Made by a program: the position numbers and the translations under genes. 64,000 nucleotides of DNA. Source: Gekko japonicus. Its lineage: Eukaryota. The stretch lies in NCBI RefSeq assembly GCF_001447785.1, contig NW_015169173.1, forward strand, positions 1,025,979 through 1,089,978, given 5' to 3'. Of the stretch, positions 11,276 through 56,527 are shown one piece after another. The notes under the pieces were generated by a model. It was not told where the DNA came from, did not search any database, and saw only the letters and a program-made list of their open reading frames with translations. Each line of letters starts with the position of its first letter. The stretch's first letter is position 1.

Positions 11276-32973
<21,698 letters not shown>

Positions 32974-34889: not shown

Positions 34890-35760
34890 TGTGCCGGCCC
34901 AGCTGTGCTACACGCCCCTGTTCCCGACTTCTGCAGCACCACCTCCCACACAGAAAGACATGGAAGCGACAGCTGCTGCGGGGAGGCCCCGCTTACCAGA
35001 ACGGAAGCTCTCGTGCCCCTCCCCCAGGCCACGCACCGTCAGGCCCGCCGAAGAGCTCGTCCGCCGCCGGATACCGCCGCCCCCATCCACACCAGGCCAG
35101 GCCTCTCCCCCAGCATCACATCCCCCCCACCCCGGTCTTTCGTTTCCACGCAGTTTCGGCGGGCGAGTCAGCCTCTCCCTTGCTACCGGCCTTCTTCGCC
35201 TCTTCTCTGTTGTCCGATCCAATCACCGCCAACCAGGCAAACCCCGACCCGGCGCCTTACAGGATCCCCTTCGCCCAGTTCCCATTTAGGCCCAAGCTTA
35301 CAGAGCCTCCCACCATCACCGCGCTCGCTCCCAGCCCCTCACAAGCACACGGACAATCCCGGCGCGGTACCTGCCCGGTTCCCGCGTGCCCAGATTCAGG
35401 CCGCGGCGTCAGCGACGAAGGAGGGAGGGGGCGCCAGCAGGAGATGAACGCAACACGCGGGCGATGAACTACGCGGGCCCCCGTCTTCACCGCTCACGTG
35501 ACGGAGGAAAAAGAAAGGGAGAGCGCGCTCGCGCACGTTGGGGAAATGAGCACGACAGTGAACCACGTGATGCTGGGAAAGAGCCGTAGCCTTTCTTGTC
35601 AGCCCATAAGCGCTCGTGCAACTCAGCCCAGCGTGGCATCTGCCGGATTCCTACAAAGAGGGATAGGAGGAGCGGAATTCTCCCCACCCACTTTTCCGTG
35701 TGGTGGAGGTTATTTCCGGCGACGGAGCTGTACTGGGACGAAACCGGCTTTAAAGACACC
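34890..35760 (-). promoter_or_regulatory. CpG-island promoter and non-coding 5' exon(s) of TNPO2
   Basis: CpG-dense island about 2 kb upstream of the ATG exon, with E-boxes TCACGTGAC (35494-35502) and CCACGTGA (~35563). Exact exon-1 limits not resolved. Confidence 0.75.
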
Positions 35761-35999
35761 AAATTTGGGGAGAGCACTCCTACTGTGGCATAGGTGCTCG
35801 CTAAGAAGGGATTTTTAGAAATTCAAAAGGGGGGAAATGTGCTCCCCCCCATTGCCGCTGCCAGGCAGCTGCCTCTCTGCACCCCAACTCCCTGATTGGT
35901 GAGCTGCAGAGCTCAGTGTTCTGAGGTGTAAAAAAAAAAAAGCCAACAGTTACAGGGGACTGCAGACAGCTAATGACTGGAGGAAATCGGGAGTGGCCA

Positions 36000-36739
36000 A
36001 CAAGCACCTGTGAGGTTCAGTAATGCTGCTGGCCCAGCCTCTCCAATGACTTCCAACACACTTCCCCCTAGGGTATGAATGTTTATGGGGAGATAGTAAA
36101 GGACATTTTTAGGAGCCATTTCGATGGTGCCTTCCTCATGAACCTGAACAAATGTCCACCACATCACCACTCCCTCACACCAACTCCCCCCACACCTCTC
36201 ACCTCTTACTGCTCCCAAAAAATCTCCTGGCAAACATCAAGCCAGATACAGCAACGCTACGAGGAGGCAATTTAGGAATAAGGCAAAGACATTTGCACAT
36301 AGGACTCCTGTGGCGCACTGAGCTGCGCAGGCCAAGTACCAGCGAGATCACCCTGAGGTGCTCAGAACCACACAGTCTCCATATGAGCAACACAATCCAG
36401 GAACACAAGTCGAGAGGCCATCACTTTCGTGGAAGGTGGCAGGAGTAGACTTAACAGACGACTGCTTTTTAAATGGACATGCCTATGTGGCCTGCTCCAG
36501 AGTGAGCTCATCAAGCAGCCTGGTGATCCTAGCACCTGAGGGCAGAACCACCGATATGGTCTAGAGAGAGGTCCTTCAGTAGAGAAAAAAAGTACATATG
36601 TCTCACTTCATTTCTTACACTACAATCTTCTCCATTAGAATTCCTACAACAAATGTCACATTTCAAATTTCACATCATCAGTATTATAACTGGATTTATG
36701 GAACTTAAGTACCGTAGCGAAGCACGGGTAGCAGGCTAG
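36000..36739 (+). mobile_element. Helitron remnant (Pif1-helicase C-terminus and 3' terminus); 5' limit uncertain
   Basis: KSRG/(frameshift)/KVAGVDLTDDCFLNGHAYVACSRVSSSSSLVILAPEGRTTDMV*REVLQ* resembles Helitron helicase motifs V-VI. Subterminal hairpin CCGTAGCGAAGCACGG (36712-36727) is followed by CTAG|T (36736-36740). Confidence 0.85.
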
Positions 36740-38322: not shown

Positions 38323-38637
38323 CTCAGAGATTAAGACGCTGGGCGGCAGACCAGGTCTGTAGTTTGGCACTTCAAGACCCGAGTGCCATCTGAGGAGTGA
38401 GCTCCCTACTCTGACCCCAGCTCCTGCCAACCTAGCAGTTTGAAAGCAAGAAATTTCAAGTAGATAAATAGGTACCGCTTCCGTGGGAAGGTAACAGCGT
38501 TCTGTGCACCTCAGCATTTAGTCATGCCGGCCACATGACCAGTGAGAAATATTCGGACAGCACTGGCTCTTCAGCTTGGAAATGGAGATGAGCAACCCCC
38601 CCAGAGTGATTTGCCTTGCTTTCGAGCAAGGTAACTT
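38323..38637 (+). mobile_element. Sauria-type SINE
   Basis: Body tagataaataggtaccgctt...ggaaggtaac...gtcatgccggccacatgacc...gagatgagc, with perfect 11-bp TSD tagcactttag (38312-38322 and 38638-38648). Confidence 0.8.
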
Positions 38638-38899
38638 TAGCACTTTAGAGACCCACAAGATTTTCAAGACTCGAAGCTCCCTTCGTCAGAATCACTTTTG
38701 CTATTTACTTCGATGGGAGGAAGGCTGCATCCCGACATGAAGTCAGATCACTGTAACAGAGCAACTGTTAACTCGCCAGTGAGTATATGCAAACCTTAAT
38801 TAAAAATACCCAATAAAAGCAAAGAATTTGCCTTTTGAAACTGTACCTATCGTATAGCTTCCCATGCAAACTAGTAAAGTGAGCAGAGGAATTCTTAAC

Positions 38900-39560
38900 A
38901 GGCCGCCTTTCTCACCCTTTTACTACCCTGTCGCGTGCCGGTCCACTTTCTCCCAACCTCACCAGTACTTGGCGCTGCGGAAGTGCGGAGTGCCTGATAC
39001 GCGAACTACAATTCCCGACAAGCCATGCGAACTCTCTTCCATTGCCCCCCATTCCGGAGCTGGCGAAGGGAGGTTGCCCGGGTCGGACCCGGCGGCGGCG
39101 GCGGCCCGAACGGGCGGGCATGGGGGGCTGCCTTTCCTCACAGGCGGCCGATGACCTTTCGTTGCTCAACGACTCTACGGGCGACGGAGCGAGCCTTGGG
39201 CCTGGGGATCAACCCCCACCGCCCACCTCTGCTCCGCCTCCCCCCTACCAGGTACGGAGGGGAGCGGGGGAGAGGCGGAAAACGGCGCTGTGGAGCTGAC
39301 ATGGTCCAGCTACGCGCTCGGAAGGCGGGGGGGGGGTGTCTGTTGTGGGCAGCCTCCGAGGCTTCGCTGGGCAGAGGGTAACCGGCTGATACAGGGGGAA
39401 ACCGGGGCGGTGTTTACGAGGATATCGGGTTCTTCAAGCTTTTCGTCTGGGCGCACTGTCGGGATTGGGTCGGCTAACCGAGTTTGGTTTACTGGAGCAA
39501 ATGGCGAGGGATGGAGCCACAGAGGTGAGCCGTGAGCGATCGACTGAAAACAAGTTGGAG
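38900..39560 (+). promoter_or_regulatory. CpG-island promoter of the RNF11-like gene
   Basis: ETS site CGGAAGTG (38978-38985) and ZNF143-associated motif ACTACAATTCCC (39005-39016) in a CpG-dense island covering coding exon 1. Confidence 0.8.
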
Positions 39561-42500
39561 ACTCTGGTTTCTTCCACCTTTGTGAACTGGACACTCAAGA
39601 GTTCAAGCTGGGAGGTCCATCTAGCTCCGGGATGCTACTGAGGTGAATTTGCTTCAGTTGACTGAATGATGGGTTTATGAAGGTGAGCTGATACCGGGGA
39701 GAGAACTGGAGCGAGAATCCCCTTTGCCCCGTAAATTGTTGGCCTGCTGGGACTGAGAGATTAGGATTACTGGTCTACCTATTACTCTGTCGGCAGAGCG
39801 GGGGCTATATAAACATCTGGATTGAGGATCTGAGGCTGAGACCATGGAGTGCAATGTAATTGAAGGCATAAGGTTTGTCTGTCAGTTGTGGAAGGGGCCA
39901 CCTCATACCAAGACCTGGGAGACTAAATTATGCTAATAGAGTTTTCAAGGCAAAAGACCTTCAGAGGGGGATTGCCATTTCCTGGCTCTACATCATGACC
40001 CTGGTATTCCTTGGAGGTCTCCCATCCAAATACTAGCCAGGGAGACGTCTCCTGCTTAGCTTCTGAGATCTGACAAGATCAGGTTAGCTTGGCTATCCAG
40101 GTTAGGGCAAGATGGTCAATTAGAGTAAGGTAAATAAATTAATTTTAAAGGGGCACTTGGGTGGAAAAACTGAGGAGAGAATTCTATGTCAGATGGAAGG
40201 ACGCTTCAGTAATACGGAGCTGCAAGGGGGGAAAGATGCAGGCAGACAGCAGTCTTTGGTAATGTGAAAAAGCCGCCAGGGGCAGCTGAAGTTGGACAGC
40301 AGGAAGTTCACAGAATGTGTATCACCTTATGGAAAGTGACAGAAGAGGGGCCTTTTCACTATCCTGGCTCATTGCAGGGTTTTGATTGAAAACTCAGGTT
40401 CCAGACTGTGTGTTAGTTGTTGTGATCTTGCCTTTTTCTTAGTGAATCTCTGGAAAATAATGAGCTATGGCAGTGGTTGTTGTAATATTGGTCAAGATCC
40501 AGTATTGGGCTGGAACTCTCTCGCAGCTCAGAGTTCCAGTGGGTGAGCTCAGAGAGGAAGGTGAGCTCAGAGAGAAGGGTGGATAGCGAGATAACAGAAA
40601 TAGATTTGAAGCTAGAACCAGAGGTGTATTTGCTTAATATGTTACCGGAGGGGATTAAATATAATGAAAAAAGTGTGATATTATATGTCCTCACAGTATC
40701 CAGAATACTTGTAGCTAAATCGTGGAAATCAGATAAAATTCCAAGTAGAGAAGAATTAACAATGAAAATTTTGGAAATAAAAGAAATGGACAAATTGAAC
40801 ATGATACTAGCGGGGGAAGGAAGAAAATGTATTCCAAAAAAGATGGCAAAAGTTAGATAGATGGATGGGGGAAAACGTGTAATGTAAACTCCAAAATATG
40901 TAAATGTTTATTTTATGCATGCTTTATACAATGGAAAATGATAAATAAACGATTTAAAAAGAGAGAGAGAGGAGGGTGGATAGCAAATTTGGGTTTGCTT
41001 ATGTATAGTGTGCAAAATGGCCTTGAGATACAACTTGTTGCTCAGTAATGCCATATATTTATGAATATTAAATATGAAAAATAAAATAGAGATGTGTATA
41101 GTGTAAACTGACTTCTGAGAGGAAATAGCATGGAGTTGCTCTGTAAGTGGATTTCAAAAGCTACAGTAAGTAAAGTATAGTAAGTTTATAAATGGGTCCC
41201 ACTTCCAAAAGTTGGAAACCCACACTGCTGTGGTATTGAGGGAAGCTGAGGTCTCATATAAGAACATAACATAAGAGATGCCAATGTTGGATCAGGCCAA
41301 AGGCCCATCCAGTCCAACACTCTGTATCCCACAGTGGCCAGAAATACCAGTGCCATCAGGAGGTCCACCAGTGGGGCCAGGACATTAGAAGCCATCCCAC
41401 TGTTGACCCCCCCCAAGCACCAAGATGACAGAGCATCACTTGCCCCGGAGTCCCTATCTATACCTTGTGGCTAATAGCCACTGATGGACCTCTGCTAGTC
41501 ATTCTTTCCACAGATGAATTGCCTAGAAAATTTAATAATTTGGTTTCATCCTAGTAACAGTTGCTCTCTGTGCCTTTGATCTTTCCTTTCTGATGCCTGA
41601 TACTCATTTTGAACCGTTTGATTCTGGTGTTGTGCATATTTTTGTACAGTGCCACACCTTATCAATCTCCATAGGGAAGCGTTGTTCAAAGTAGGCTGGC
41701 TGCTCTTCTATGAAGAAAGAAGTAGGGATGGGTTTTTATTGTTTTGTCCTTGCATGTTACCACAGACCTGTTTCAAACTATATGGATGAGGCAGACAGCA
41801 CAGTGTTTCTGAGTTCTATGTAAAGCAGGGGAATGGAATAAACTAGGCTTCTATTCCCAGAGAATACTGTAGGGGGTCTTAGAAGAAACAAAGATGGACA
41901 GCCTACCTCGGTGTGTTGAGAGAAACCAAGGACAGGAGAAATTATTCATATTAATTAATTAAAAAAACTTCTTAATGACAGTTCTTGGTTGTGGGCAGTG
42001 CTCTATACTGCCACGTGCTGTAGAGGTAAGTATGTATGCATTGCCACAGAGTAACTTATGGTTAGCTAAAGCAGTGCCGTGGCTGGAGCAAGGGTACACC
42101 AATGTGTGAAAGAAACTGGGATGTGATCTTTGTAGTATACTACTATTGGACCACTGCTCCTGAATAAAGGTTTGTCTAGATGCATGCCTGGGTATAAGGA
42201 GTTCATTGGTCCTTCAAAGATTTTATCACTATAGTGGTGGTTAGAGTGTCGCATTAGGATTTGGGTGACCCAGGTTCAAATCCCCACTTTGCCATGGAGG
42301 TTTGATGAGTAACCTTGACCCAGCCTAACCTGCCTCACAGGGTTATTGTGAAGATAAAACGGAAGAGAGAATTATTTAAGCTCCCATTGGGGAGAAAGGC
42401 AGGATAAAATGAAGCAAATAAATATGCTTGTCTTCTGCACACTAGAGTGTGACATTGCTCCAGAGCCACAGTACTGTAACCAATGAAGGTACTTTATCTA

Positions 42501-45500
42501 ACTAAACCTTACTCTACGGTGATGTGGTGTTGGAGTAGAGTTTAATGCAGGGGTGGCCAAACTGCGCCTCGGGAGCCACATGTGGCTCTTTCACACATGT
42601 GCAGCTTCCGACAGGGTGGCTGGGGAAGTGAAGGGGAGGCAGTCTTCCCTTCCCCAGCCAGTGTTCCCCTCCCTGGGTAGGTTTGAGGTGAGGGGGAGCA
42701 GAGAAAGAAAGCAACTTTAAATGCATTCTCAAAGCCCCCACCCCCCTGGCCGGCTTGGAGAAAGCATTTGTCTCTTTAAATATCATTATCAATATCTGTT
42801 TTTACCTCTTTTGTTTTTATTTCTGGCAGTCTTATTTAATGTTAATACAAAGCAAATTTGCATATTTGCCAATAAAAACATGTGTAATATTTGTTGATGA
42901 GTTTTAGATCAAATCACGCATGAACTCTCCCTACCCTGTTTCCCCAAAAATAAGACCTACCCAAAAAATAAGCCCTAGCAGGATTTCTATGCATTTGTGG
43001 TATAAAGCCCTAGTGTGTCTTCTTGAGAAAAAATAAATATAAGACAGTGTCTTATTTTCGGGGAAATACGGTAGTAGCTAAAATGACTAAACAGGAGCTA
43101 TTGTACTTTGGTCACATTATGAGAAGACAAGCATCACTGAAAAAGACAGTAATGCTAGGAAAAGTTGAAGGCAGCAGAAAAAGAGGAAGACCCAACATGA
43201 CATGGATTGACTGAGTCAAGGAGGCTACAACCCTCAGTCTGTGAGACCTGAGCAAGGCTGTTAATGATGGGATGTTTCGGAGGTCATTAATTCATAGGGC
43301 TGCTGTAAGTCAGAAGTGACTTGATGGCACTTAACATATGCAGACGGTGAGGCACACATGTCATAGGGGCAAGTATGTATGCATGTGACAATACAGAACA
43401 TTGCCCAAAACCAAGAACTGTCACGAACAAGTTTTTTTGTTAGTATGAATCATTTCTCCAATCCCCAGTTTTTCACTGCTTACACAGGAAGGTCATCTTT
43501 CTTCTAAGACCCTCTGCACCTGCAAACTACACTCTTGCTGAGTGGTGTGTGTATATTCTGTCTGAGTGTTCTGGAAAAACGTGAACTGCCAGGATGAAGC
43601 AGGTAGCAGTACCCCTGTTTACCCTTATCTGTGTGCAGCAGAGTAGCTGTTATCAGACATTTTCAGCCGTGCATATGCCAAAATGTTAATTTGTACACAT
43701 GTGAATGCATGATTATGTAGTTCCACATTTGTAAAAAATTTACCAAAGTCACAAATCTTTTGAAAGTGCAGAGTGGTTCATAAGAGAAGGGATCTGTTGC
43801 TGACAGGATTGCTGTATGTTTGTGTACATCTTCATGTGATTACTGGCTGGTTACAAGAGCTGCTTGGTCTTTTGACTTTCTAGGAACATGCGCCAATTCC
43901 AGTGTATCATCCTACACCCAGCCAGGCACGTCTCGCCACACAACTGACAGAAGAGGAGCAGATCCGAATTGCTCAGAGGATTGGGCTAATCCAACACCTT
44001 CCCAAAGGAATCTTTGATCCAGGCTCAGAGCCATCAGAAAAAAAAATTAAAGAGTACGTCCTTCATGTCCAATGCTTTGTATTTACCATGCTAGCTTAAT
44101 AGCAATTATTTGCTAATGGTGCCTAAAGAGGCAGTATGCTTCATTAACTTGGTGTGCAGCATGTTGTTTTACACATCTGTATAGGCCCTGTCCACTTTTT
44201 TAGACACCTTAATACTGTTTTGCATCTACTTCCTAAATGGAGCAAGTGTTTTCTTGAGAATAATTTATTGGGAAGATAACAAGACTCTCCAATTATGGAA
44301 GAAATTTGAAGAAAGCAGGAAGCCCAATTGTGAAGATGGTTGCTGTTGATCAAAATACTCATTTGGAGAAATATCTAAAGCCGTTCTGACTAAGAGAAAG
44401 ACCTGTGCATGCACAAACACAAATGCCCTCTGCATTTGACTTCTGGTATTTCTTTACCTCAAGAACTATGGTTTAGAACCTGTAATCTGCAGGTGCAATG
44501 ATTGCAGATCTTTCCTGCATTCCCCTCTCCCCAGCAGCCCTTTCCAACACTGGGAAAGTTTATTCCTGGGGTCAATGTGCCCACATGGACTAACAGCCAC
44601 CAAGGGTCACGAGACTGTAGTGGAGAGGAAGAGTGGGGCAAATTTGCCCTCTTCTTGCTCTTCTGTACCTACTGAAGAAGCAGAAAGGCAGTTTTGTCCC
44701 CTTCTCCCTTCCCATTGCAGTCTTCCAACCATTGTGGCTATTTGCCCACTCAGGGGATGTAGTTCCTCCTTTCAAGTAACCACTCCTCCATAGCAAGGCC
44801 CATCTCTTGTTTTCAAGGACTGTTACGCTAGACTGGTGGTCCCAACCTGGGGGCCAGGGATTCCTGGGGAGCCCCAGAGTTATTGCAAGGGGTCTGCAAA
44901 CGCATATGGAGCATTGTCATTTTGATCTTTTTGTCATTATGTATTTTCTCAATCAACAGATGCTAATAGTACAACTATTATCATGTGAGATGTGGGGGAT
45001 GCAGATTTTCCCCTGTAAAGGTGGGGAACCAGTGCTCTTAACCAGTAGGCTCAGACAGAACAGATGGAGTATGGAAAAATAGTTTTGCAGAAAGTAGTTG
45101 ATTCCTAATGAAAGCACAGAGATGAGTTACATTATTACCCAGAAGAGGTTATTCTGTTAGGTTCCCCCCCCCCCCGAGATAGACTGTACTGTTTATATGA
45201 TTATGGAAGTCACATCTAGAAACAGAGGTCATTTCGGGGCGGATTGCAGTTCCCTCGGGTGAGGTACGGTGGGCGGGGCACATGATGAAGCCCCGCCCCC
45301 TGCTTCCGGCCCTCATTCAGCCAGGAGGAGGCAGGAGAAGAGGGAGGGTAAGTTGCTTCCTCCCTGCCTCTCCCCACCCCTGCCTGCCTGGGGCCAGGGA
45401 GGGCCTTCGCAGGGCTTCCTCATTGGGGGCGGGGTGTGTGGCCTTATGACACACTTCCGGTGATGTCAGGGGGTGTGGCATATGCTAATGAGTTATGCTA

Positions 45501-47005
45501 ATAAGTCCCTCCAGCTCTTTTTCTACGAAACGACCCGTCTAGAAACATTCGCCTTTTTGCTTTTTGAAATTGAGATTATCATAGAGATTTTGGATATGTC
45601 TAAACTTCTGCTGCCTACCTATGCATCCATACTCCCCTGGCTGGGAGCCATATTCCTCTCCCCCCAAGCTAGCATACTTAAAATAAAAATTTCTTTCACT
45701 GTCTTTTCCATCTACATACATTTAACCTCTGGAATTGTTTGCTATTTAGACAGACTAGTACTGGTTGTAAAAAAACAAAAAAGATACATTAATAGAGTTT
45801 TTTTGTATCAGCAGCATTTAGGTGGGATAGAGAAGGAACGTTTTTAAATTTCTACTTTGGAAGACAGGAGGGAACAACTTGTGATGAAGGGATTTTCTGA
45901 TTTACAGTAGAGAAACAGTTGCTGGCCCCCATAAGAAATGGAATTTTGGACAAAATGGATTTTGGCTAGCAGTGATTGGCTTGCTGTCTTTTGGCCATGG
46001 AAATATTTGAGAGGTGGGTGGAAACACTAGGTCATAGCTCTGTCACCTCCAAGTTCATAGTGTGTTGTCTTCTTATCTCAGTTTATGAATAACAAAGGAA
46101 GTCTGATGCCAGAATACCAAGAATGTAGGGTACAGAAAATCTTCCTTTGGAAACCTCACTTCCTAGGAATTATGTGGAGAATCCTGAATGTGCTAGATCA
46201 CAGATCCCTAGTCTTATTTAATCTGTAGGCACTTTTGGAATTTTGGCAACAGGTAATAGGCACTAGAACAAAGTGGCTGCCATGGGGGAGTAAGGATTGA
46301 TCATAAAATGGCCGCAATGAGGGATGGACCTCACTACGATGTTGGGAAGGTTCCAAAAATATTAGCAGTGCCAAAGCAAGCATGCTGCTATGATGGAGAC
46401 AGCTGTATCCAAATGAGTGCTTGCTAGTCACCAAGGTGATGCTTTTTTGGGCTCTTCTAACATGCCTTCTCTAGGGAAGTGGAAAGCAGGATTGGCTGTT
46501 GGTTTAGGGAAGCATCAAGTAGGTGCCAGAGACATTGGGCATTACTGCATGCTTAGTGTTGCCAGAAGGAAAACACTACAATACCTTCAGTTCACTACTC
46601 TGGAATATAATAAAAGAGTACTTATGTTACAAATGGAGTTCAGTGTTAATGGCTTTGGGGGCTAGTTTTGTGAGGTTTATAAGCACTGAGCAAAATGGCA
46701 AGTAGTGCTAATTTCTAGTGTATTTGAATTATGATGCAACTTGGGCAGGGGATGTAAAAGATTTGAAACCTCCTAATAGCTTCCTTTTGCTAATGCCATC
46801 TTTCCCCCACTTTTTCTCTTTGCCTGGCTCCAGGTGTGTGATCTGCATGCTGGATTTTGTATATGGAGACCCCATCCGGTTCCTGCCATGCTTGCACATC
46901 TACCATGTACACTGCATTGATGACTGGCTGATGCGATCATTCACATGTCCTTCGTGCATGGAGCCAGTTGATGCTGCTCTGCTGTCCTCCTATGAGACTA
47001 ATTGA
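39120..47005 (+). CDS. RING finger protein 11-like (RING-H2 E3 ligase with PPxY motif), complete, 3 exons, 157 aa
   Basis: join(39120..39251,43884..44053,46834..47005), all GT-AG and in frame. Protein: MGGCLSSQAADDLSLLNDSTGDGASLGPGDQPPPPTSAPPPPYQ|EHAPIPVYHPTPSQARLATQLTEEEQIRIAQRIGLIQHLPKGIFDPGSEPSEKKIKE|CVICMLDFVYGDPIRFLPCLHIYHVHCIDDWLMRSFTCPSCMEPVDAALLSSYETN. Clearly RNF11 family; symbol withheld because synteny suggests a paralogue. Confidence 0.93.
39940..40108 (-). mobile_element. 5S rRNA-headed SINE, second copy
   Basis: Reverse complement of the 3632-3780 family; 5S-like gatctcagaagctaagcagg...ctggctagtatttggatgggagacc. Confidence 0.8.
40588..40965 (+). mobile_element. 5'-truncated L1 insertion
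   Basis: ORF2 C-terminal peptide ..ILYVLTVSRILVAKSWKSDKIPS.., AATAAA and short A-tail, with 19-bp TSD (40569-40587 and 40966-40984, 18/19). Confidence 0.82.
41260..41500 (-). mobile_element. CR1-type LINE/SINE 3' end
   Basis: ataagaacataac tail plus ggatcaggccaaaggcccatccagtcc. A related copy lies at ~17090-17290. Confidence 0.65.
42932..43073. mobile_element. Tc1/mariner (pogo/Tigger-like) MITE
   Basis: TA-CCCTGTTTCCCCAAAAATAAGAC ... GTCTTATTTTCGGGGAAATACGG-TA: ~23-bp TIRs flanked by TA. Confidence 0.8.
43080..43335 (+). mobile_element. RTE-clade LINE 3' end
   Basis: LLYFGHIMRRQASLKKTVMLGKVEGSRKRGRPNMTWID, followed by tail aagtcagaagtgacttgatggcac. Confidence 0.85.
45223..45537. mobile_element. 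hAT-type MITE
   Basis: Imperfect TIRs CAGAGGTCATTTCG and CGAAACGACCCG, with perfect 8-bp TSD tctagaaa (45215-45222 and 45538-45545). Confidence 0.8.
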
Positions 47006-48451
47006 GGTGGCTCTGTGCCCTGCTCTTGTGAATGTTTCCAGGCCTGGGCTATGTGGGAGGCTAGGAGGTGGCACACACTTTTATTTGCACACTTCTGGGA
47101 TACACCAAAGAATTCTGTGGTGAAGAACCCTGGTCTCAGACCTCAAAGACAACACAGAGGCATTTTGGCTTGGCTGGCTGTGCTAAAGGTTGACTTGTGC
47201 CATAATTGAGCATTTGTACCCAAACTTGATGACAATTAAGGAAAAATGGTAATGCTGGAGTTGTCCTTTCACTCCTTCCACAAATCTTTGTACGTCAAGT
47301 TTGTTGTCTGAAATAATTCTTTGCTCTCATGTCCTTCTAATTCCTCACTGAGTTTGCAGGTAGGGTTTTGTTCACTGATCTTGGGATTTCAGGTTAGAGG
47401 AATTCTAGGGTTCTGGTTGGTTTGCAGTGGAATCTGGGCCTTTCTCAAAGCATTTTTAGCACTCACTCTTTCATTGCATGAAAGGAACGGTGCTTAGTAT
47501 TACTGGGTGGCAACAGCAGTGGTATTTATGTTGACCACTGTTGAAGTATATGTGCTGCACTGCAGAAGAGAAACATACAATTCTTTGAGAGACACTTTGT
47601 GGACAGAAACATTGGGGGTGGGGCTATAGCTTGTTAGGGTTAGCTGGAAGAAGAGTGCTTCTCTTTCAAAGTTCATGTTTCAGCTAAGGAGACTGCCCAG
47701 AGGAATGCTTCCTTCTCTTGTTTTCTGCTTTTAAAGTGTTTTTCTCAATCAGGATGGGTTTTTTTTAATCCTTTCTGAAGTGTTTGCAGGTTAGGCTCCT
47801 GTGCTAATATTCTAAAGTTCATAGGAAAGGGGGTACACAGGCTCCATAGAGAATGATTTTATCTTGTCACATGACTAGAACAGATTTAGAGAAGCAAACA
47901 GTATTTTCTCTCCCACACTGAAATACTCATTCAGGTGTAGTTAACTGGATTGCTGTTTGATAAGTGAAGATGGCTCACAGTTCAGAATTTCTCCATGAAA
48001 TTATCTAGCAAAAGCAGCATTGACAGTTTTTAGACAATCCTGATGGCAAGCTTGTACAGCGAGAGTTGGCAAAGTTATTTGTAAATAAGAATTTTATAGA
48101 AGGTTGGTGCTTCAGTACAGTGAAATCCTTTCAAGAGACTTGACTATGGGTTAAGGCATTTAAGTGCACTACTATAAAAAGTGAAGACATTTTTGCTTGG
48201 CTGTTTGCCCAATGTTTGCTGTTTGCCTTACACAAGTTCAAGTAAAAACTCTTGTCTCATAGGAAACTGCCAGCACAGCCCACTGGTTAGTGCCAAGCAG
48301 CAAGTCCCTCCATTTGGAAAGGTTGCCCTTAGTTATGCTATGTTGTTTATTGCCTTGCAAGTGGAGAGGCGTGAAAGTGCTTTTCTGATTATGTATTATC
48401 CTTAACAAGGATTTAGCATTTGAAAGTAAAACCAATGTATATTGCATTCAA

Positions 48452-48461
48452 ATTAAATAAA
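48452..48461 (+). terminator. Candidate polyadenylation signal of the RNF11-like gene
   Basis: Overlapping ATTAAA/AATAAA about 1.45 kb after the stop codon, followed by a T-rich downstream element. Confidence 0.6.
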
Positions 48462-49875
48462 AGAGATTGCCTATAATCTCTTGGATTTTTTCTCTTTTTA
48501 CAAAAAATTAAAACGACTGCCCCCATCCCTTCCATCATTTTTTTTCAATTACAGTGAAACTTGGTGAATTTTTCTAGTGGTGAATCCTTAGGGATTCGAT
48601 TCTGCTCCACTTTTCTCTTTCCCAGTAAATGGAGTGATAAGGGGTCAGCTGCAGCCCTGAATATAGTTTATTGCTATAACAGATAATGAAAACTACCTGA
48701 ACTACTACTCCGCCTGCAGCCCCTCCCTCCCCCACACACTTCATTTCTCAGGTGATTCAGACATCCAAATGTAAGTGATAACTACCATTCAGGAGCGCTC
48801 TGTCTGCAGTGGTACCAAAAATGCCAGAATATTTCTAGCCATTCTACTTTACTATGATGGGGAAGAGATGCTAGACTATAAAAGCCTCAAAACATGGTAA
48901 AGGAAGGGATGAAGTAGAAGCTGAATACAGCAAAATAGAAGAGACTATAATTCAAAAAAAGCTATTTCCCAGATTTCGAATTAGGGAAGTTTGACTTCTG
49001 TAGACCCCCAGAACTTCTGAGACTCCATGGACATAGTCCATTCAGGAGGAAACAACCCTATTAATTACAGATTAGTAGGATTAAAGGGGTTAGTGGGTAA
49101 AGAATCAAATGTTTAATGTTCACATGAAGATACACTTGGAAGGAAATCAATTTAAGAGAAGGGCAAAAATTCAGTGGCAGAGCATCTGCTTGGCATGTAG
49201 AAGTCCCAATCCTCCTGGTAAAACAATCAGGTAATAAGTGGCGTGAAAAACCTTTACCTAAGACTCTGGAGCCATTGCCAGTCTGACAGTACTGACCTTG
49301 ATGGACCAATGCATTAAGTCAGCATAAAGCAGCAATATCTAGAACATTCTGGTAACGTTTCAATGCAAAATACAATTGCGTCTTTAAACATTTCTACCCA
49401 TCATGAAAGAAATCTAGTTTGTTCACACAAGCAGCATTTATTTTTTCCATTCTATCGCATGCATTAATATTAATATAAACTGGCTGTTTACAGCGGACTA
49501 ACTGTATCTACCTATACGAGTTTTTTCCTAGCTACCTATCATACAAATGGCGTCCCTATAACCAGTAAGTTTACCTAATAGTTTTTCCATATGGTCATGT
49601 ACCCAGAAGAGAGAAAATAAGTGCTAGCTGCTTGTGTGAAACAAAACTATCATTTGGGTCACCTAGAACAAATTGGCAAATGAATACCTGCATGGCTCAT
49701 AGCCATTCCTTTCTTCATCAATAAGCTGAACTGTCCCTACATTGTAGGCAACTGACACCATCTCTGACATTAGCTGGTGATTATGTCAAAAATAGATCTT
49801 CTCAAGACAGTTCTGGAACTGTGAGTTACAAATAGGTTAACAGCTGTTCCTTGCTGCTTGAAGCATATGATATGT

Positions 49876-51073
49876 CAGAGGTGGAAAATGGTCAGAAAAA
49901 TCAGTAAAAGTCCGTTTTTTCATCTTGGTAATTTTTCAGTTTTTTTTTTTTTTAAAAAGATCAGTAAAGTTAGTATTTCTTTGTTTTCATGAATGCAATT
50001 TGTGGTGTTCTTGTTTTCGTTACTGCATTTTGGGGGAAACAATGACTTCCCAGTGAGAAAAGAGATTCCCCCCCCCTCCAAAGTTCAGAGATAGTGCAAC
50101 AAGAACAGAACTTATCTGGGTAATAAAAACAATTTCAGTTGACTTCACTTTTGAGCCACCTTGTGAACATATTGGGGAAACTTTCCAGTTTGTGTTTCCA
50201 AATGCAGTGCCCCAACATCTTCCCTTATTAAGGACAAAGGCATGGTATCTAACAGATGTGCTGGCCCCATACTTCAGAAAACAGTTACCGAAGGACTTCA
50301 ATGGTACATATTACACCTTGTGCTATGATGAAACCGCAAATGCACCATCTTACAAAGAATGGCAGGTAGCTGTTAGATACTGATCACCAACCAAAAACAT
50401 GATTGTGACCAGGCACCTCCAGACCTTTTTTTATGGGTTTGACAACAGCTAAAGATATTTACAGTAAACTGGAGGAAGCTTTGGATTTGGCACAACTTCC
50501 TTGGTCAAAACTGCTAATGCTAAGTAAACATGGGCCAAATGTCAACAACGCTGCCACTAAATGATTATCTTATTTTGAGAGACAGCCTGTTGGCACTTGT
50601 AACATTCATCTAGTTCATAATGTGTTCCATAGGGGCCTGGCACAACTGGGAGACGATGTACCAAATTTAATTTTCCTTCACAATGGGAGGATTTCACAAA
50701 AATTCAAAGAGATCTTACTATCCCAAATATCATTGCTTGAAACATGTTTCTTCTAGATGGTTCTCACTAGAGTGCTGCTGCAAGACTGACTGAACAGTGG
50801 CCAGCAGTACTTTAAGGACTTCGTTCCTAAGAGTAAAAGTGCTTTGGTGAAATCTTCCACAAAGTATAGAAACATAATTAACCTCTTAAAACATAAGACA
50901 ATGAAAGTAGAGGTGATGTTTTCTTGCACAAGTGCCCACTTATTTATAAAGTTCACTGGCGTGTTCCAGAAAGAAGAGCCTTTGGTGCATGGGATGCAGT
51001 TTTGTCAGTATTTGGCCAGTTTTTTGGAATTTGGAATCAATAATTTTACCCCTTTGACTAGTTTTCATCCCTG
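49876..51073 (+). mobile_element. Internally deleted hAT-superfamily DNA transposon with transposase remnant
   Basis: Degenerate TIRs CAGAGGTGGAAAATGGTCA and TGACTAGTTTTCATCCCTG. Broken ORF with YTLCYDET...VRY, LMLS..GPNVN, C.IH.VHN and KHVSSRW motifs (DDE/CxxH/RW pattern). Confidence 0.8.
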
Positions 51074-53152
51074 TGAACAGGTTAACAGCTGTTCCTTTCT
51101 GCTTGAAGCATATGATATGAAACAGTTCATCCTACATAATTGCATAATTTAAGATCAACTGCTCAAGTAGGACAGTTAGACTGGTCTTCTTNNNNNNNNN
51201 NNNNNNACGCGTCTTCTTGCCCTACACTTCTAGTGTATGTTTGTTATTCAATAGTGACCCTGATCAGTGGTTGCCCTGGAATGGCTAGCTCTATGGGACT
51301 CTGAGAAGTAACTACTACCAATTCTTGTAAAGTAGTTAATTAATCCCATAATAGGAGATGCCCCATGCTATGCTCCCAACTGTGGGGTAAAAAAACTGCA
51401 GTTAAAACTGACAAATATCCACAATAATTTTTTATTTTTAAAAGTTAGTATTTTGAGTGATTATTGGCATTGATTGCTGGGCTGTGTAGGTCAAAAGCAA
51501 TAAAGGTGAGCCTAACCACATATGTAATAGGGAAGCAAATTGCCACTGCTTATAATCAAATACTAGTGAAATATTTAAGCCTCTACTGCTGCTTCAGACT
51601 TTCAACAGCAGACAGTGCCTCCAACTGGTTGAAATTCCACGAAATGTTCTTAGTGTTAAAAAAAGAACATTGTTTTCTCCACCTCAGGGATCTTTAAGTT
51701 TCCTATGTAAGTTCCAAAGTTGTTGTGAGACAGAAAGCAGTGACATTTTGTAAATGAGAGTATATATAGATCATCTGGTTTGTATGCTCTTTCATAAACA
51801 CTTTCATTTATTAACCATCCAGATAGTCTTATCACAGATGATGGTAGATTAGCTCAAGTGGTCCTCCTTCAGCATGTGATTTGCATGTTTAACACTTACA
51901 GGTTAGGTATTTTTAATATCCTCCCCAACAAAACTGCCTGTTCCATTAAAAGGCCCTAGCACAAAGGTGCAATTCAGAAGTTATCCCAACTGCTCCTTAG
52001 CATAAAACTGGAAGTGATGTAATTAGATCTCTGAAAGATCTAGTTAATATTTTCTAGGAATATACCAGAAGCCTTTCTACAAAGTTGTCATGCCCAGCCA
52101 CTCACAGCAACAATAGAACTCATTGTTGTCTGTGCCAGGGATTACATCTCAGCACTCAGAATACTAACAAGAATAGTGTAGAGAATCCAATTGGGAACAC
52201 TAAGGACAGATAAAAAGCCAGGTCATGTCCACAGCAGGCTATTGCCAAACCAGCAGCCACAGACCCATAGTTCTAAGCCTGTGGTCACAGTCCAAGAACT
52301 CTAGGCACACAGCTCAAGGCAAGGACATAAGGGCAGGTTAAAGGCTAAAATCATGATATTTGGAGTTCCATTTGTCCTAGGCAAGCCTTTGGTAATTTTA
52401 ACCAGTTTTTTACCAATATGTTCATGGTACAGTGTTAAGTGCAGAACAAGTTTCTACCTTCTTAGCTAGGAAAGAGGCACAGAATAATCCCTGGTGCTGG
52501 ATTGCAGCATGCATAGAAGACTAGAACAGGCTTAAGCAGCAGCAACTGGAATTCAAAATGAAAACCACACAACCCACTGCAATACTACAGTGAAACGGGT
52601 AAAAAAAGGCAGAAACGCAGTCACAAACTTGCCGCATACCAAGAAACCCCACAGCAGTCTTTTTTCATCAGCTACAGATAAGGAAAACTGAAAGTGCTCT
52701 GGGGTTACCACAGCCAGCAGCACAGATCAGCTAGCTGTGACTGCATTTAAGTTCACCTTCAATAGGAAGATATCATTTGGCAGAGATGGAGTCAGTTGGC
52801 TGACCCCATGGTGGAAACTTCAGGAGTAATGTTAAGCAAAGGCTGTGTGCCTTGGGGTGTAATGGGAGAGGTATCTTGCCTGGTGATTCAAGGAAAAACA
52901 TGACAGACCAATTCCACTATTTGGGGATTACAAGTAAAAAAAAAATCTGCAGCTAAGTCAAAGTTCTTCGTTGTCGGGGGGGGGGGAGAAAACAATAAAT
53001 GAACCATTGAAGGAAGCTCTAAGTTCCCAGGTATAAAAGTATGGCAAGTCACCTGCTGCCATGGCAGCACTCAGTCTGTAGGGCAGAGCTAGTTTCCTTC
53101 GCTGTTTTAAATAATTATGTACATCAGAGACAGTCCAGGCTGGAGCTGAAAG

Positions 53153-56100
53153 TTATTTCACCAAAGGACGGGTTTTATCATCATCACTGCACTGGTGGGC
53201 TTTGTACTTTTTCACTTCAGCCATATATTTGGCCCATGCATCTCCCTTACTTGTCAAAACCTACAAGAGACAAGAATGGAAAGGAAAAACAGAAATTACA
53301 CAGAATCCTTGCATTTTCATAGTTAAGAACCCATAACCAGTGGCCCATAAGTGGCCTAGGGCATCCATCTACAAGACCAAGTTGCAATGTACCCCTTGTT
53401 GGGACTTGAACTGGGGAGGCCCCTTGCTCAGCAACTGGCTAGACTCTCAGCGTAACAGACCACACAGGGCTGCTGTGAAGATTAAATGCATTCACCACTG
53501 ATAATGGAGAAAGGAAGTGCTCTTGTCTTACTCCTGAAGATGCTTTTAAGCAATCCCCTGATAATAAAGGTTCTGCTTCTGATATAGAGCAGGAGACTAT
53601 CTCACAGAAAACAGAATTTCATGCAACATGGTTGTTCAACTATTCTCTTTCAAAAGAAACTCTATGGAGGCTGTCTCTTGAACTCCAACTGATTGGTCAT
53701 CAAAATTCAACTACCCAGCAGCTATTCAAATACAAAAAAGATGGCTTTCTTCATGAAGAACTAGATCCCAAGTGCAACACAACCAACACTCTTGGATGAG
53801 ATGAAGGCAGAAATGCCATAGCTTAACCTTCCACCCACATTAAAGCTGGCTGAAAAGAAACAGGAGGCTCTCACTTGTTTTTTACAAGGCTGATGCTGTG
53901 CTATGGCCTGTCAGTTGGCTATCTTTGAGACTTACCACAAGCCTTGTCTCAACTTACCTCATCCTCTGTCTTTTGTTTCTTGGCTACCACTCCTGTCTTC
54001 AGGGCTAGTTTGCTGCCCCCTCTCCGCTTGCCCACCTGGGTGAAGGGATAGAAGACTGCAACCGTTATAGGAGCCCTGGGAGCTGCAAGGGGAATGTTGC
54101 CCACTATATAACGGTATAGGGAGTCCTTCAATTAGATCATCTTAACTCGCCATCACACCTGTCAGTCTGTACAGAGCTGCCGAGCGTTATTTACACCGTT
54201 GCGCTAGGAGGGTAAAATGGCACCTTAGCAGTGTTCAGCAATACATCTGTACAGTTAAGCCCAAACATAAAAACAATGACAAATAACAAGAAAAGGGAAG
54301 TATCCAAACTTTTTCCATGCTTGCTTCTACTTATGAAATACCACTGAATTTTTACTGACTCCCTTTCAACATCACTGCCTTACTGCAGCATACATATGAA
54401 ATGGTTTAATTATCTGATAATTAAGTCAGCAGAACTAACTATGCCCCATAGACTAATCAAAGTCCAACTAACCAAATGCAGACAGGTAAAGAATGAGCTG
54501 TTCATTTATATGCCTAGTGCTATGCACACTAATGTCACCCTACATGCATCAAGCAATCTGGATTCCTAATAGCACCTGAAAACTTAAGATTCAATGTTTC
54601 AAACTTCATTTTTAAAAGATAATTTCTACTCCAGAGGAAAAAAAATAAGAAATGAAAGTAGAATTCAGTGATCACAAACAGATGCCACAGCATCCTGCTT
54701 GCCTCACACACTCCTGAAATGTTTCATGTACCATACTCTGCCTCTGTTCCTTGCTAATGTCACTGCAAAAATCTTTCCACCTCCATATCACAAACAAATA
54801 AAACACACATGCACATAAATTATATTAGAATGACAATCAGATCAGGAAAGGTTTGCTTATTTTCTGGTTATTACATTAGAACAGGATGTCTCCCTGAGTT
54901 ATTAAAACCTGATCACAAACTCTACAGTCACATCTGCATTGGCCAGCATGAGGACTGGCAGCATACCAGCCGAATCTAGAAACAGTACCCCAATTAGTAC
55001 AATGAAAGGGATTCATTTCTATTCCAGGAACTATACTGGAATGAAACTTTCCACAACAGCTCTTCTGAGATAGACATTAAAGTGTTTCATTATATTCACC
55101 AGCAGCAGCAGAGTTGAGAAAGGAAAAATATGTCTGTTTTTACATGACTACAAGCAGGTTGTTATTATTCTCCTCTAACAGTTTTTAAAAGCCTGTACCA
55201 GTCCAACAGATATTTCTCTATAAATCACGTAAAACAAGGCATTATGTTGTGAAATCTGCATGTAAACAGCAAAAAGTTCTTGCACGTCTGCTGTTTTCAC
55301 TTTAAAGCAATCTTCTATGAATGTCATAACTGACACATGAATGTCATAACTGACATTTTTTTCTCCACAGAAGCAAGAAAACCATTTGACACCAACGATT
55401 TGCTTTTACTTTGGGCTTTCTTTTTTTAAAAAGAGCAGCTTTAAATTGTCATAACCATTCATCTAAAATTAAGACACAGTATACAGGAGAATGAAATTAT
55501 GAATTATATTTAGTCCTGGATACTGAAAAATTTTGCCTCAATGAAATAGCAGGGGCTGTGGGGCAAGATTACCTGAAGCCAGAGAAGACTAACTAAAATT
55601 ACAATTAATTTGGAAACAAGTCACACTGGAATAAGTAGGCACTCATATAGAGTATAGAGCTAATTAAACAAATATGGCACATTTTTTGCTTATATAGTAA
55701 CTTCCCTATACCTTAATAACACTGACAGCAGCACCCCAGAGTTACTGATGTCCAGGTCTATACTCACTTCAAAGCCAATAGTAAGAAACTTGCACAGCAC
55801 TTACTCATACTGAACACAGTAGCATTATCAGGATGTTTGGGGTTTTTTGAAAAAAATTCAAAACATTTATGCTTTTAAAAAAACCAGAAGAGAGAGGAAA
55901 AGGAGAGGTACTAAATAACTTCTCCCACCTACTAGAATCCTGCTATAAAAATGGGGCCCTTCAAAAATGATTACTAAACAGAGGAGGGTGAAAGTTTAAA
56001 AAAACAGAATTAAGAGTCTGTATGTGCTTACAGGCTGGGCCCAATGGGGGGGGAAGAATAATTAAAGTTGTTACATCCGTTGAATTTCTACCTGTTATTA

Positions 56101-56527
56101 TTCTGCCTACAGTTACATACACAGAAAACTTCAGGGGACTACCTTTAAAGAGAAAGCAAACTGAGAAAAGCCACCGGTGCTGGGTCATTTATTAGAAAGT
56201 GGCGGCTCCCAAAATAAAGCAGCTAGAGGATCTGCGCGAAGGGTTACAAGGAAAAGGAAGGTCAGTGCCCGGATCCCTTACGAAGCTAAGGGCGCTCCCG
56301 CTCCGCTTCTTCCCCGGAGGCTCCTGCTCCCCGGGCGGCTCCGTTCGTGGCTCGGTCTCTTTCTCGGTCCCAGTTCCCTGTGCCCCCGCACCGCTTTTCC
56401 CGCCAGCTGCAGCGGCCTCTTCCATGTGCCTTTTGAAGAGCTCTAGAAAAGAGCCGTCGTTGGCGAAGACGTTCACCCCGCCCGGCGCGGCCGCCTCAGA
56501 GCCTGGCCCTCCGCCTTGCGCCGCCAT
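53153..56527 (-). CDS. TRIR: Telomerase RNA component interacting RNase (C19orf43), complete, 3 exons, 143 aa
   Basis: complement(join(53153..53260,53958..54035,56282..56527)). Hallmark peptides NVFANDGSFLELFKR, SF|VGKRRGGSKLALKTGVVAKKQKTEDE|VLTSKGDAWAKYMAEVKKYKAHQCSDDDKTRPLVK*. Confidence 0.95.
55317..55355. repeat. 20-bp tandem duplication
   Basis: atgaatgtcataactgacac followed by atgaatgtcataactgaca. Confidence 0.85.

What the first reader, a model, noticed from the sequence alone, without database searches (positions are those of the whole stretch)
39120..47005. Intact RNF11 paralogue between TNPO2 and TRIR, probably an ohnologue missing from the human locus
Seen: a complete three-exon, 157-aa gene with its own CpG promoter and polyA signal. 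It keeps the N-terminal MGxC lipidation pattern, an acidic-dileucine sorting motif (DDLSLL), the PPPY motif and all eight RING-H2 ligands. The N-terminal third differs from RNF11 as I recall it and has an added proline tract (QPPPPTSAPPPPY). Knowledge, from memory: human RNF11 is at 1p32 near EPS15 and CDKN2C, whose paralogues EPS15L1 and CDKN2D are on 19p13, and human TNPO2 and TRIR are direct neighbours. Inference: this is the 19p13-side copy from early vertebrate genome duplication, kept in reptiles and lost on the human lineage. It would be a second adaptor for NEDD4-family HECT ligases (SMURF2/ITCH).
Basis: partly seen in the sequence, partly recalled or inferred. Interest (0 to 1): 0.75.

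Follow-up and report, generated by a model that had tools for sequence, protein, structure and literature searches.

The report
Second RNF11 gene, fish rnf11a orthologue
This lizard gene is an intact, spliced second copy of the ubiquitin regulator RNF11, already listed in databases, that most jawed vertebrates share, that likely dates from an early vertebrate genome doubling, and that placental mammals have likely lost; an ordinary retained duplicate.

Summary
The gene is real: three exons, 157 aa, all RING-H2 ligands and N-terminal motifs present, and intron 1 is spliced in 4 of 4 runs laid. It is not new: the protein is 157/157 identical to RefSeq XP_015271377.1, RNF11-like of Gekko japonicus. 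A separate canonical RNF11 lies on contig C6731 beside EPS15-type and RAB3B genes. In the tree the gene joins zebrafish rnf11a, Xenopus rnf11.2, shark rnf11a and turtle, alligator, ratite and marsupial copies (100/98), so the duplication predates the shark/bony-fish split. Neighbours place the two copies on segments that a published paralogon table splits at the second genome duplication. Marsupials keep it; 0 of 41 named placental entries are this type, but no placental genome could be searched. Function as a NEDD4-family adaptor is inferred from motifs only. One side result: the PPxY tyrosine is missing in 7 of 10 marsupial and 7 of 7 shark or ray models. Low interest.

The parts
38501..39500 (+). 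CpG-rich promoter region
   Evidence: CpG o/e 0.59 and 0.87 in two 500-base bins; longest RNA-type contig starts at 39027
39120..39251 (+). coding exon 1 (44 codons): Gly2/Cys4 acylation pattern, acidic dileucine motif, proline run, PPxY
   Evidence: covered by reads and joined to exon 2 in 4 of 4 runs
39252..43883 (+). intron 1, 4632 bases, GT-AG, phase 0; holds several repeats
   Evidence: joint skipping 4632 bases in X20 (6 reads), X21 (32 reads), X1 and X9 (one contig each)
39348..39682 (+). possible minor alternative first exon spliced to exon 2
   Evidence: one contig of run X1, depth 6.9 against 106 for the main joint; 0 reads in the other three runs; an in-frame ATG two codons before the donor
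43884..44053 (+). coding exon 2 (170 bases)
   Evidence: same length as exon 2 of the canonical copy
44054..46833 (+). intron 2, 2780 bases, GT-AG, phase 2
   Evidence: the joint itself was not covered by the lay; contigs of X1 and X9 stop fitting at the exon 2 end
46834..47005 (+). coding exon 3 (172 bases): RING-H2, Thr138 (Thr135 of RNF11), C-terminal dileucine motif, stop
47006..48500 (+). 3' untranslated region (end not mapped); AATAAA at 48456
   Evidence: hexamers; 19 runs hold 0.75-0.97 of the words of 46834-48500 but none is on record as RNA, so that list is not counted as evidence
20627..20944 (-). exon of the upstream neighbour TNPO2 (gene runs to a CpG island at 35001-36000, head to head with this gene)
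   Evidence: SNORD41 at 20462-20532 and 22181-22249
51807..56527 (-). downstream neighbour, likely TRIR, tail to tail with this gene
   Evidence: exon translations and hexamer; Atlas lead 0.85; name partly recalled

Best explanation
This is an intact, spliced second RNF11 gene, the orthologue of fish rnf11a, that likely arose in the second vertebrate genome duplication, was likely lost in placental mammals, and is predicted to work like RNF11 as a membrane-anchored endosomal adaptor and brake for NEDD4-family ubiquitin ligases. Shown: gene structure, splicing of intron 1, a separate canonical copy, orthology by tree, age older than the shark/bony-fish split, position on a paralogous segment, strong constraint. 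Inferred from motif conservation with RNF11: Gly2 myristoylation and Cys4 palmitoylation anchor it to membranes; the acidic dileucine motifs route it through AP-2 and GGA to endosomes; PPxY binds WW domains of ITCH, SMURF, WWP or NEDD4; the RING-H2 binds E2 enzymes such as UBC13 and UbcH5, so that it recruits HECT ligases and limits their chain building in TGF-beta, EGFR and NF-kB signalling. The differences from RNF11 cluster in exon 1 (Lys6, Ser10 and Ser21 not kept, longer proline run), which would tune localisation and regulation rather than change the chemistry.
For: Structure and motifs. Intron 1 joint in 4 of 4 runs. Canonical copy with the same intron positions on C6731. Tree of 52 rows: 29 a-type rows form one side of a branch, 100/98, with sharks outermost. 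AU tests on 26 rows reject teleost a+b as one clade (p 0.0002), gecko a+b (p 9e-8), marsupial a with mammal RNF11 (p 8e-5) and shark a+b (p 0.023). C6731 also carries EH-domain, RAB3B, BTF3L4-type and CC2D1 genes; the window's contig carries HOOK and JUNB-type genes 65-150 kb away; TNPO1 and BTF3 share a third contig, C7831. Lamb 2021 (PMC8040251) lists RAB3B, JUN, HOOK1 as Quad C and RAB3D, JUNB, HOOK2 as Quad D of paralogon 8, and C and D as the pair split after the first duplication. Exons 2-3 between the two gecko copies: pN 0.062, pS 0.734 over 113 codons; 107 of 113 residues shared with turtle, 101 with zebrafish rnf11a. 0 of 41 named placental entries are a-type against 11 of 13 marsupial ones. 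Mechanism of RNF11: PMC7697665 sections 2.1, 2.2, 2.5.
Against: The root is weak: hagfish is the only outgroup, a long branch that fell inside the canonical group in the larger tree and outside it with 70/62 in the smaller; in the smaller tree the a/b branch drops to 92/83. No gene family was found with one member on C6731 and its sister on the window's contig; the link runs through a third contig and a published table. Placental absence rests on the top 120 rows of two searches and 22 rows of a third plus partial cluster listings, not on genomes; monotremes were not seen at all. The PPxY or LPxY motif is missing in 22 of 103 full-RING a-type models against 5 of 70 canonical-type (several in both lists are poor gene models), so the WW-adaptor role is not universal for this copy. 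pS is near saturation, so the ratio is rough and covers both branches. No functional data on this protein.
Confidence: 0.8

Rival explanations
1. The copy arose by a local or segmental duplication before jawed vertebrates split, or in the first genome duplication, and only happens to lie on a paralogous segment.
For: The tree dates the split only as older than sharks versus bony fish and the root is unsure; no direct sister pair links the two contigs (RAB3-pattern exons lie on other contigs; the second CC2D1 gene on C5633).
Against: Both copies keep the same two intron positions and each sits among genes that a curated table assigns to the sister segments C and D of one paralogon.
Confidence: 0.1
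2. The gene is not lost in placentals or neognath birds but unannotated or too diverged to rank in the searches.
For: Only top-ranked rows were seen. Emu and alligator copies have long branches. In Lamb's table two columns that I read as the birds are empty for JUNB and RAB3D and give chromosome 30 for HOOK2, a hard-to-assemble microchromosome (recalled), so the 0 of 25 neognath count is weak.
Against: A koala query returned marsupial, reptile, ratite, frog and fish a-type rows but no placental one; the five placental RNF11-like or divergent rows put in the tree fall on the canonical side; a horse gene table lists TRIR and TNPO2 6.0 kb apart with no gene between (PMC8515666; a candidate list, perhaps incomplete).
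Confidence: 0.1
3. The a-copy has specialised as a RING-centred E2 binder (for example holding UBC13) for which HECT binding through PPxY is dispensable.
For: PPxY is missing in 7 of 7 full-length shark and ray models, 4 of 4 Oryzias models and 7 of 10 marsupial species models, while the RING ligands stay; RNF11 binds UBC13 tightly without building chains (PMC7697665); a minor transcript would skip exon 1 altogether.
Against: This gene and nearly all squamate, turtle, archosaur, amphibian and most teleost copies keep PPxY (81 of 103); the review notes secondary, non-canonical HECT contacts; losses may be plain decay.
Confidence: 0.2
4. It is a recent lizard duplicate, a retrocopy, a pseudogene or the only RNF11 moved to a new place.
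For: None found.
Against: Two intron-bearing copies in the genome; spliced reads; AU p 9e-8 against gecko copies as sisters; orthologues across jawed vertebrates.
Confidence: 0.01

Closest known systems
RefSeq XP_015271377.1, RING finger protein 11-like, Gekko japonicus (P0130)
   Same: 157 of 157 residues identical
   Different: Nothing; it is a predicted entry with no paper found on it
Zebrafish rnf11a (NP_957315.1, P0152) and Xenopus tropicalis rnf11.2 (NP_001006833.1, P0073)
   Same: Same clade; 129 and 128 identical residues; same motifs. A 2012 paper on zebrafish 'Rnf11-like' in NF-kB signalling and posterior patterning exists (PMID 22609198; only its title seen, in a reference list; that it is rnf11a is my assumption)
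   Different: 146 aa, without the longer proline run, which turtles, ratites, squamates and marsupials have to varying length
Mammalian RNF11 (mouse P0280; review PMC7697665)
   Same: 121 identical residues; Gly2, Cys4, both dileucine motifs, PPxY, Lys82/94/95, Thr135 and all zinc ligands kept; same intron positions as the genome's canonical copy
   Different: Paralogue, not orthologue; exon 1 about half identical; Lys6, Ser10, Ser21 not kept; evolves faster (gecko a to shark a 121 identical, mouse to shark b 148)

Membership tests
RNF11 family | C-terminal RING-H2 (C3H2C3) with eight zinc ligands | tested here: met
RNF11 family | N-terminal Gly2 and Cys4 acylation pattern | tested here: met
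   residues kept; the modification itself is not tested
RNF11 family | Acidic dileucine motifs near both ends and a PPxY motif | tested here: met
RNF11 family | Endosomal location, WW-domain and E2 binding | not testable with these tools
   inferred from PMC7697665
Orthologue of mammalian RNF11 (b type) | Groups with mammalian RNF11 and lies beside EPS15 and RAB3B | tested here: not met
   the C6731 copy does, this one does not
rnf11a orthologue group (a type) | One clade with zebrafish rnf11a, Xenopus rnf11.2 and shark rnf11a | tested here: met
   100/98; 92/83
rnf11a orthologue group (a type) | Same neighbours (TNPO2, TRIR) in fish, frog and marsupial genomes | not testable with these tools
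   no other eukaryote genome could be searched
2R ohnologue | Duplication older than the shark/bony-fish split | tested here: met
   (shark-only duplication rejected at p 0.023)
2R ohnologue | Duplication younger than the split from invertebrate chordates; single outgroup gene | tested here: inconclusive
   only one hagfish row, placement unstable
2R ohnologue | Both copies on sister segments of one paralogon | tested here: met
   RAB3B contig versus HOOK/JUNB contig matched to Lamb 2021 Quad C and D; indirect, no same-family pair on the two contigs
Gene lost in placental mammals | No intact copy at the syntenic site in placental genomes | tested here: inconclusive
   0 of 41 named protein entries; genomes not searchable

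The most novel reading that the evidence does not exclude
Fish rnf11a and rnf11b, named like teleost duplicates, are a second-round ohnologue pair shared by all jawed vertebrates, and the a-copy has repeatedly shed its HECT-binding PPxY motif (sharks and rays, Oryzias, several marsupial lines independently) while keeping membrane anchor and RING, before being lost outright in placentals. Nature would then supply PPxY-less RNF11 proteins that separate the adaptor role from the RING/E2-holding role, a point the RNF11 literature leaves open.
Probability: 0.35. Interest if true: 0.45.

Novelty: already known. Interest (0 to 1): 0.25.

Why it matters
The gene itself is an ordinary retained duplicate that databases already list. 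The practical points are small: zebrafish rnf11a and Xenopus rnf11.2 are not orthologues of human RNF11, so knock-downs in fish, frogs, reptiles and marsupials may be buffered by a paralogue that mice and humans seem to lack; and the natural PPxY-less copies offer ready-made separation-of-function variants. I found no paper describing this history in five searches aimed at it, in a library that lacks most subscription journals; gene-tree databases may already show it.

Tried and rejected
TTC39A beside the canonical copy: the family search put TTC39 exons on five other contigs and tblastx of nine such exon loci found nothing convincing in C6731:1-400000 (best E 0.026). A direct sister pair on the two contigs: CC2D1, EH domain, Jun, HOOK and Ras-family (150 of 457 candidates scored) searches gave none. 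No RNA holder was on record in the run list; not counted either way. The intron 2 joint and the transcript ends remain unobserved. No lamprey or invertebrate outgroup was obtained, so the root stays open. The Atlas look-up with the emu copy gave only RNF11 clusters without species. No solved RNF11 structure among 22 PDB matches. PMC5764321 has no whole-word RNF11. RNF11, TNPO2, BTF3L4, EPS15, CC2D1B and CDKN2C have 0 hits in Lamb's supplement, which lists three- and four-member families only and was cut when stored. Two look-ups of earlier findings were empty. Pfam named none of six repeat-like ORFs tried.
Full report
Observation. A CpG-rich stretch covers the first exon. An AATAAA lies at 48456, but the 3' end is not mapped. 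Aligned with mouse RNF11, the protein keeps Gly2, Cys4, both acidic dileucine motifs, PPxY, Lys82/94/95, Thr135 and the eight RING-H2 ligands, and does not keep Lys6, Ser10 or Ser21. Reads laid on 38800-44900 show the intron 1 joint in 4 of 4 runs from three studies: 6 and 32 raw reads in two RNA-seq runs and one contig in each of two runs whose RNA status is a guess. Intron 2 was outside the stretch laid.

It is already in databases. The protein is 157 of 157 identical to XP_015271377.1, RING finger protein 11-like of Gekko japonicus, one of 27 members of a cluster whose 15 listed members are all squamates.

A canonical copy exists elsewhere. The last exon finds one close second match among 14 in the genome, at C6731:86272 (93%). 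That gene has exons of 123, 170 and 172 bases with the same intron positions, encodes 154 aa and shares 122 residues with the window's protein: 23 of 44 in exon 1, 47 of 57 in exon 2, 52 of 56 in exon 3. Over exons 2-3 (113 codons) pN is 0.062 and pS 0.734, close to saturation like the TNPO2/TNPO1 (0.812) and BTF3L4/BTF3 (0.881) exons used as yardsticks.

Range and tree. Three searches and two cluster listings gave 309 relatives; by best score against two reference sets, 139 are of the window's type (a) and 170 canonical (b). Named a-type entries come from sharks and rays (rnf11a), coelacanth, sturgeon, teleosts (rnf11a), frogs (Xenopus rnf11.2), a newt, turtles, tuatara, squamates, alligators, emu, kiwi, ostrich and ten marsupial species. 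Of named entries, 0 of 41 placental and 0 of 25 neognath rows are a-type, against 11 of 13 marsupial and 5 of 7 ratite rows; no monotreme row of either type appeared. A tree of 52 hand-picked full-length rows (the others left out as partial, odd models or redundant) puts all 29 a-type rows on one side of a branch (100/98), with sharks outermost and then teleosts, amphibians and amniotes. On 26 of these rows, AU tests reject a teleost-only duplication (p 0.0002), a recent gecko duplication (p 9e-8), marsupial copies derived from mammalian RNF11 (p 8e-5) and, less firmly, a shark-only duplication (p 0.023). The root is not settled: the single hagfish row is long and changes place between the two trees.

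Neighbourhood. The window holds an F-box gene, TNPO2 with two SNORD41 copies, this gene, the likely TRIR and an ArsA-family gene; HOOK and JUNB-type genes follow 65-150 kb further on the same contig (JUNB versus JUN read from the translations by recall). The canonical copy's contig carries an EH-domain exon of EPS15 type, RAB3B, a BTF3L4-type gene and a CC2D1 gene; TTC39A was not found there. TNPO1 and BTF3 share a third contig, a link I predicted before searching. Lamb 2021 (PMC8040251; abstract, the section on 1R pairs and supplement rows seen) files RAB3B, JUN and HOOK1 in Quad C and RAB3D, JUNB and HOOK2 in Quad D of paralogon 8, with an ((A,B),(C,D)) pattern. The two RNF11 copies thus sit where a pair from the second duplication should. 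The support is indirect, since no family was found with one member on each of the two contigs. A horse table lists TRIR and TNPO2 6.0 kb apart with nothing between (PMC8515666, two passages seen), a weak hint for placental loss. That human TNPO2 and TRIR are direct neighbours remains recalled.

How it likely works. From the RNF11 review (PMC7697665; abstract and sections 2.1, 2.2, 2.5 read): double acylation anchors RNF11 to membranes, dileucine motifs sort it to endosomes through AP-2 and GGA, PPxY binds WW domains of NEDD4-family ligases, and the RING binds UbcH5, UbcH6 and UBC13; it acts as substrate, adaptor and inhibitor of HECT ligases. Every one of these determinants is kept here, so the same mechanism is the best guess (inferred, about 0.8). 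The review does not mention a paralogue (0 hits for paralog, ortholog, zebrafish, Xenopus). The longer proline run is not special to this species: its length varies among amniotes and is absent in frogs and teleosts.

A side result. The a-copy is the faster one (gecko to shark 121 identical residues, against 148 for mouse to shark in b) and loses PPxY often: 22 of 103 full-RING a-type models lack a P/L-P-x-Y match against 5 of 70 b-type (both lists include poor models, and two misses come from my search window). Clean cases are 7 of 7 full-length shark and ray models, 4 of 4 Oryzias models and 7 of 10 marsupial species (five with the tyrosine replaced by differing residues, two with the segment missing from the model), while wombat and two opossums keep it. 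This fits relaxed constraint in mammals before loss in placentals, or a RING-centred role; neither is tested.

Verdict. Real, intact, expressed, already annotated; orthologue of rnf11a; second-round ohnologue likely; placental loss likely but not checked in genomes. I found no paper on this history (search listings only), which says little given the library's gaps. Retained ohnologues lost in placentals are a common pattern (recalled), so interest is low.

Noticed in passing
window 39348-39682 (+): One contig of run X1 splices this intronic stretch to exon 2 (depth 6.9 against 106); an in-frame ATG two codons before the donor would give a 115-aa form without membrane anchor, first dileucine motif and PPxY. 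A softshell-turtle model (P0021) starts with the same two residues before exon 2, which may be chance.
   Followed up: partly
window 20462-20532 and 22181-22249 (-): Two SNORD41 copies in TNPO2 introns (55.8 and 48.4 bits).
   Followed up: no
G000:C6731:87000-176000: No TTC39-family exon found between canonical RNF11 and the EPS15-type gene; TTC39A lies there in human (recalled), so it may have moved or been lost in this lineage.
   Followed up: partly
G000:C6731:175830-177617 and 180039-181826: The EH-domain exon occurs twice within 1788-base copies 99.8% alike that border N gaps: probably an assembly artefact.
   Followed up: yes
proteins P0183, P0298-P0301: Snake models of the a-type gene carry an extra stretch of about 33 residues between exon 1 and exon 2, conserved across several species: a possible snake-specific alternative exon.
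   Followed up: no
proteins P0189, P0194, P0242, P0243: Ratite and alligator a-type copies are intact but have long branches, emu and alligator most; no neognath copy was seen.
   Followed up: partly
window 36322-36564, 50057-51152, 109-609: Broken reading frames that look by recall like Helitron helicase, hAT-type transposase and LINE reverse-transcriptase remnants; Pfam named none.
   Followed up: partly
window 41268-41496, 39820-40227, 42880-43083: Intron 1 holds multi-copy repeats that attract very deep read cover from elsewhere.
   Followed up: no
G000:C9463:1006530-1006655 (L052): Weak G-protein gamma match about 19 kb before the window (35 bits), on the side where a horse table lists GNG14 next to FBXW9.
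   Followed up: no
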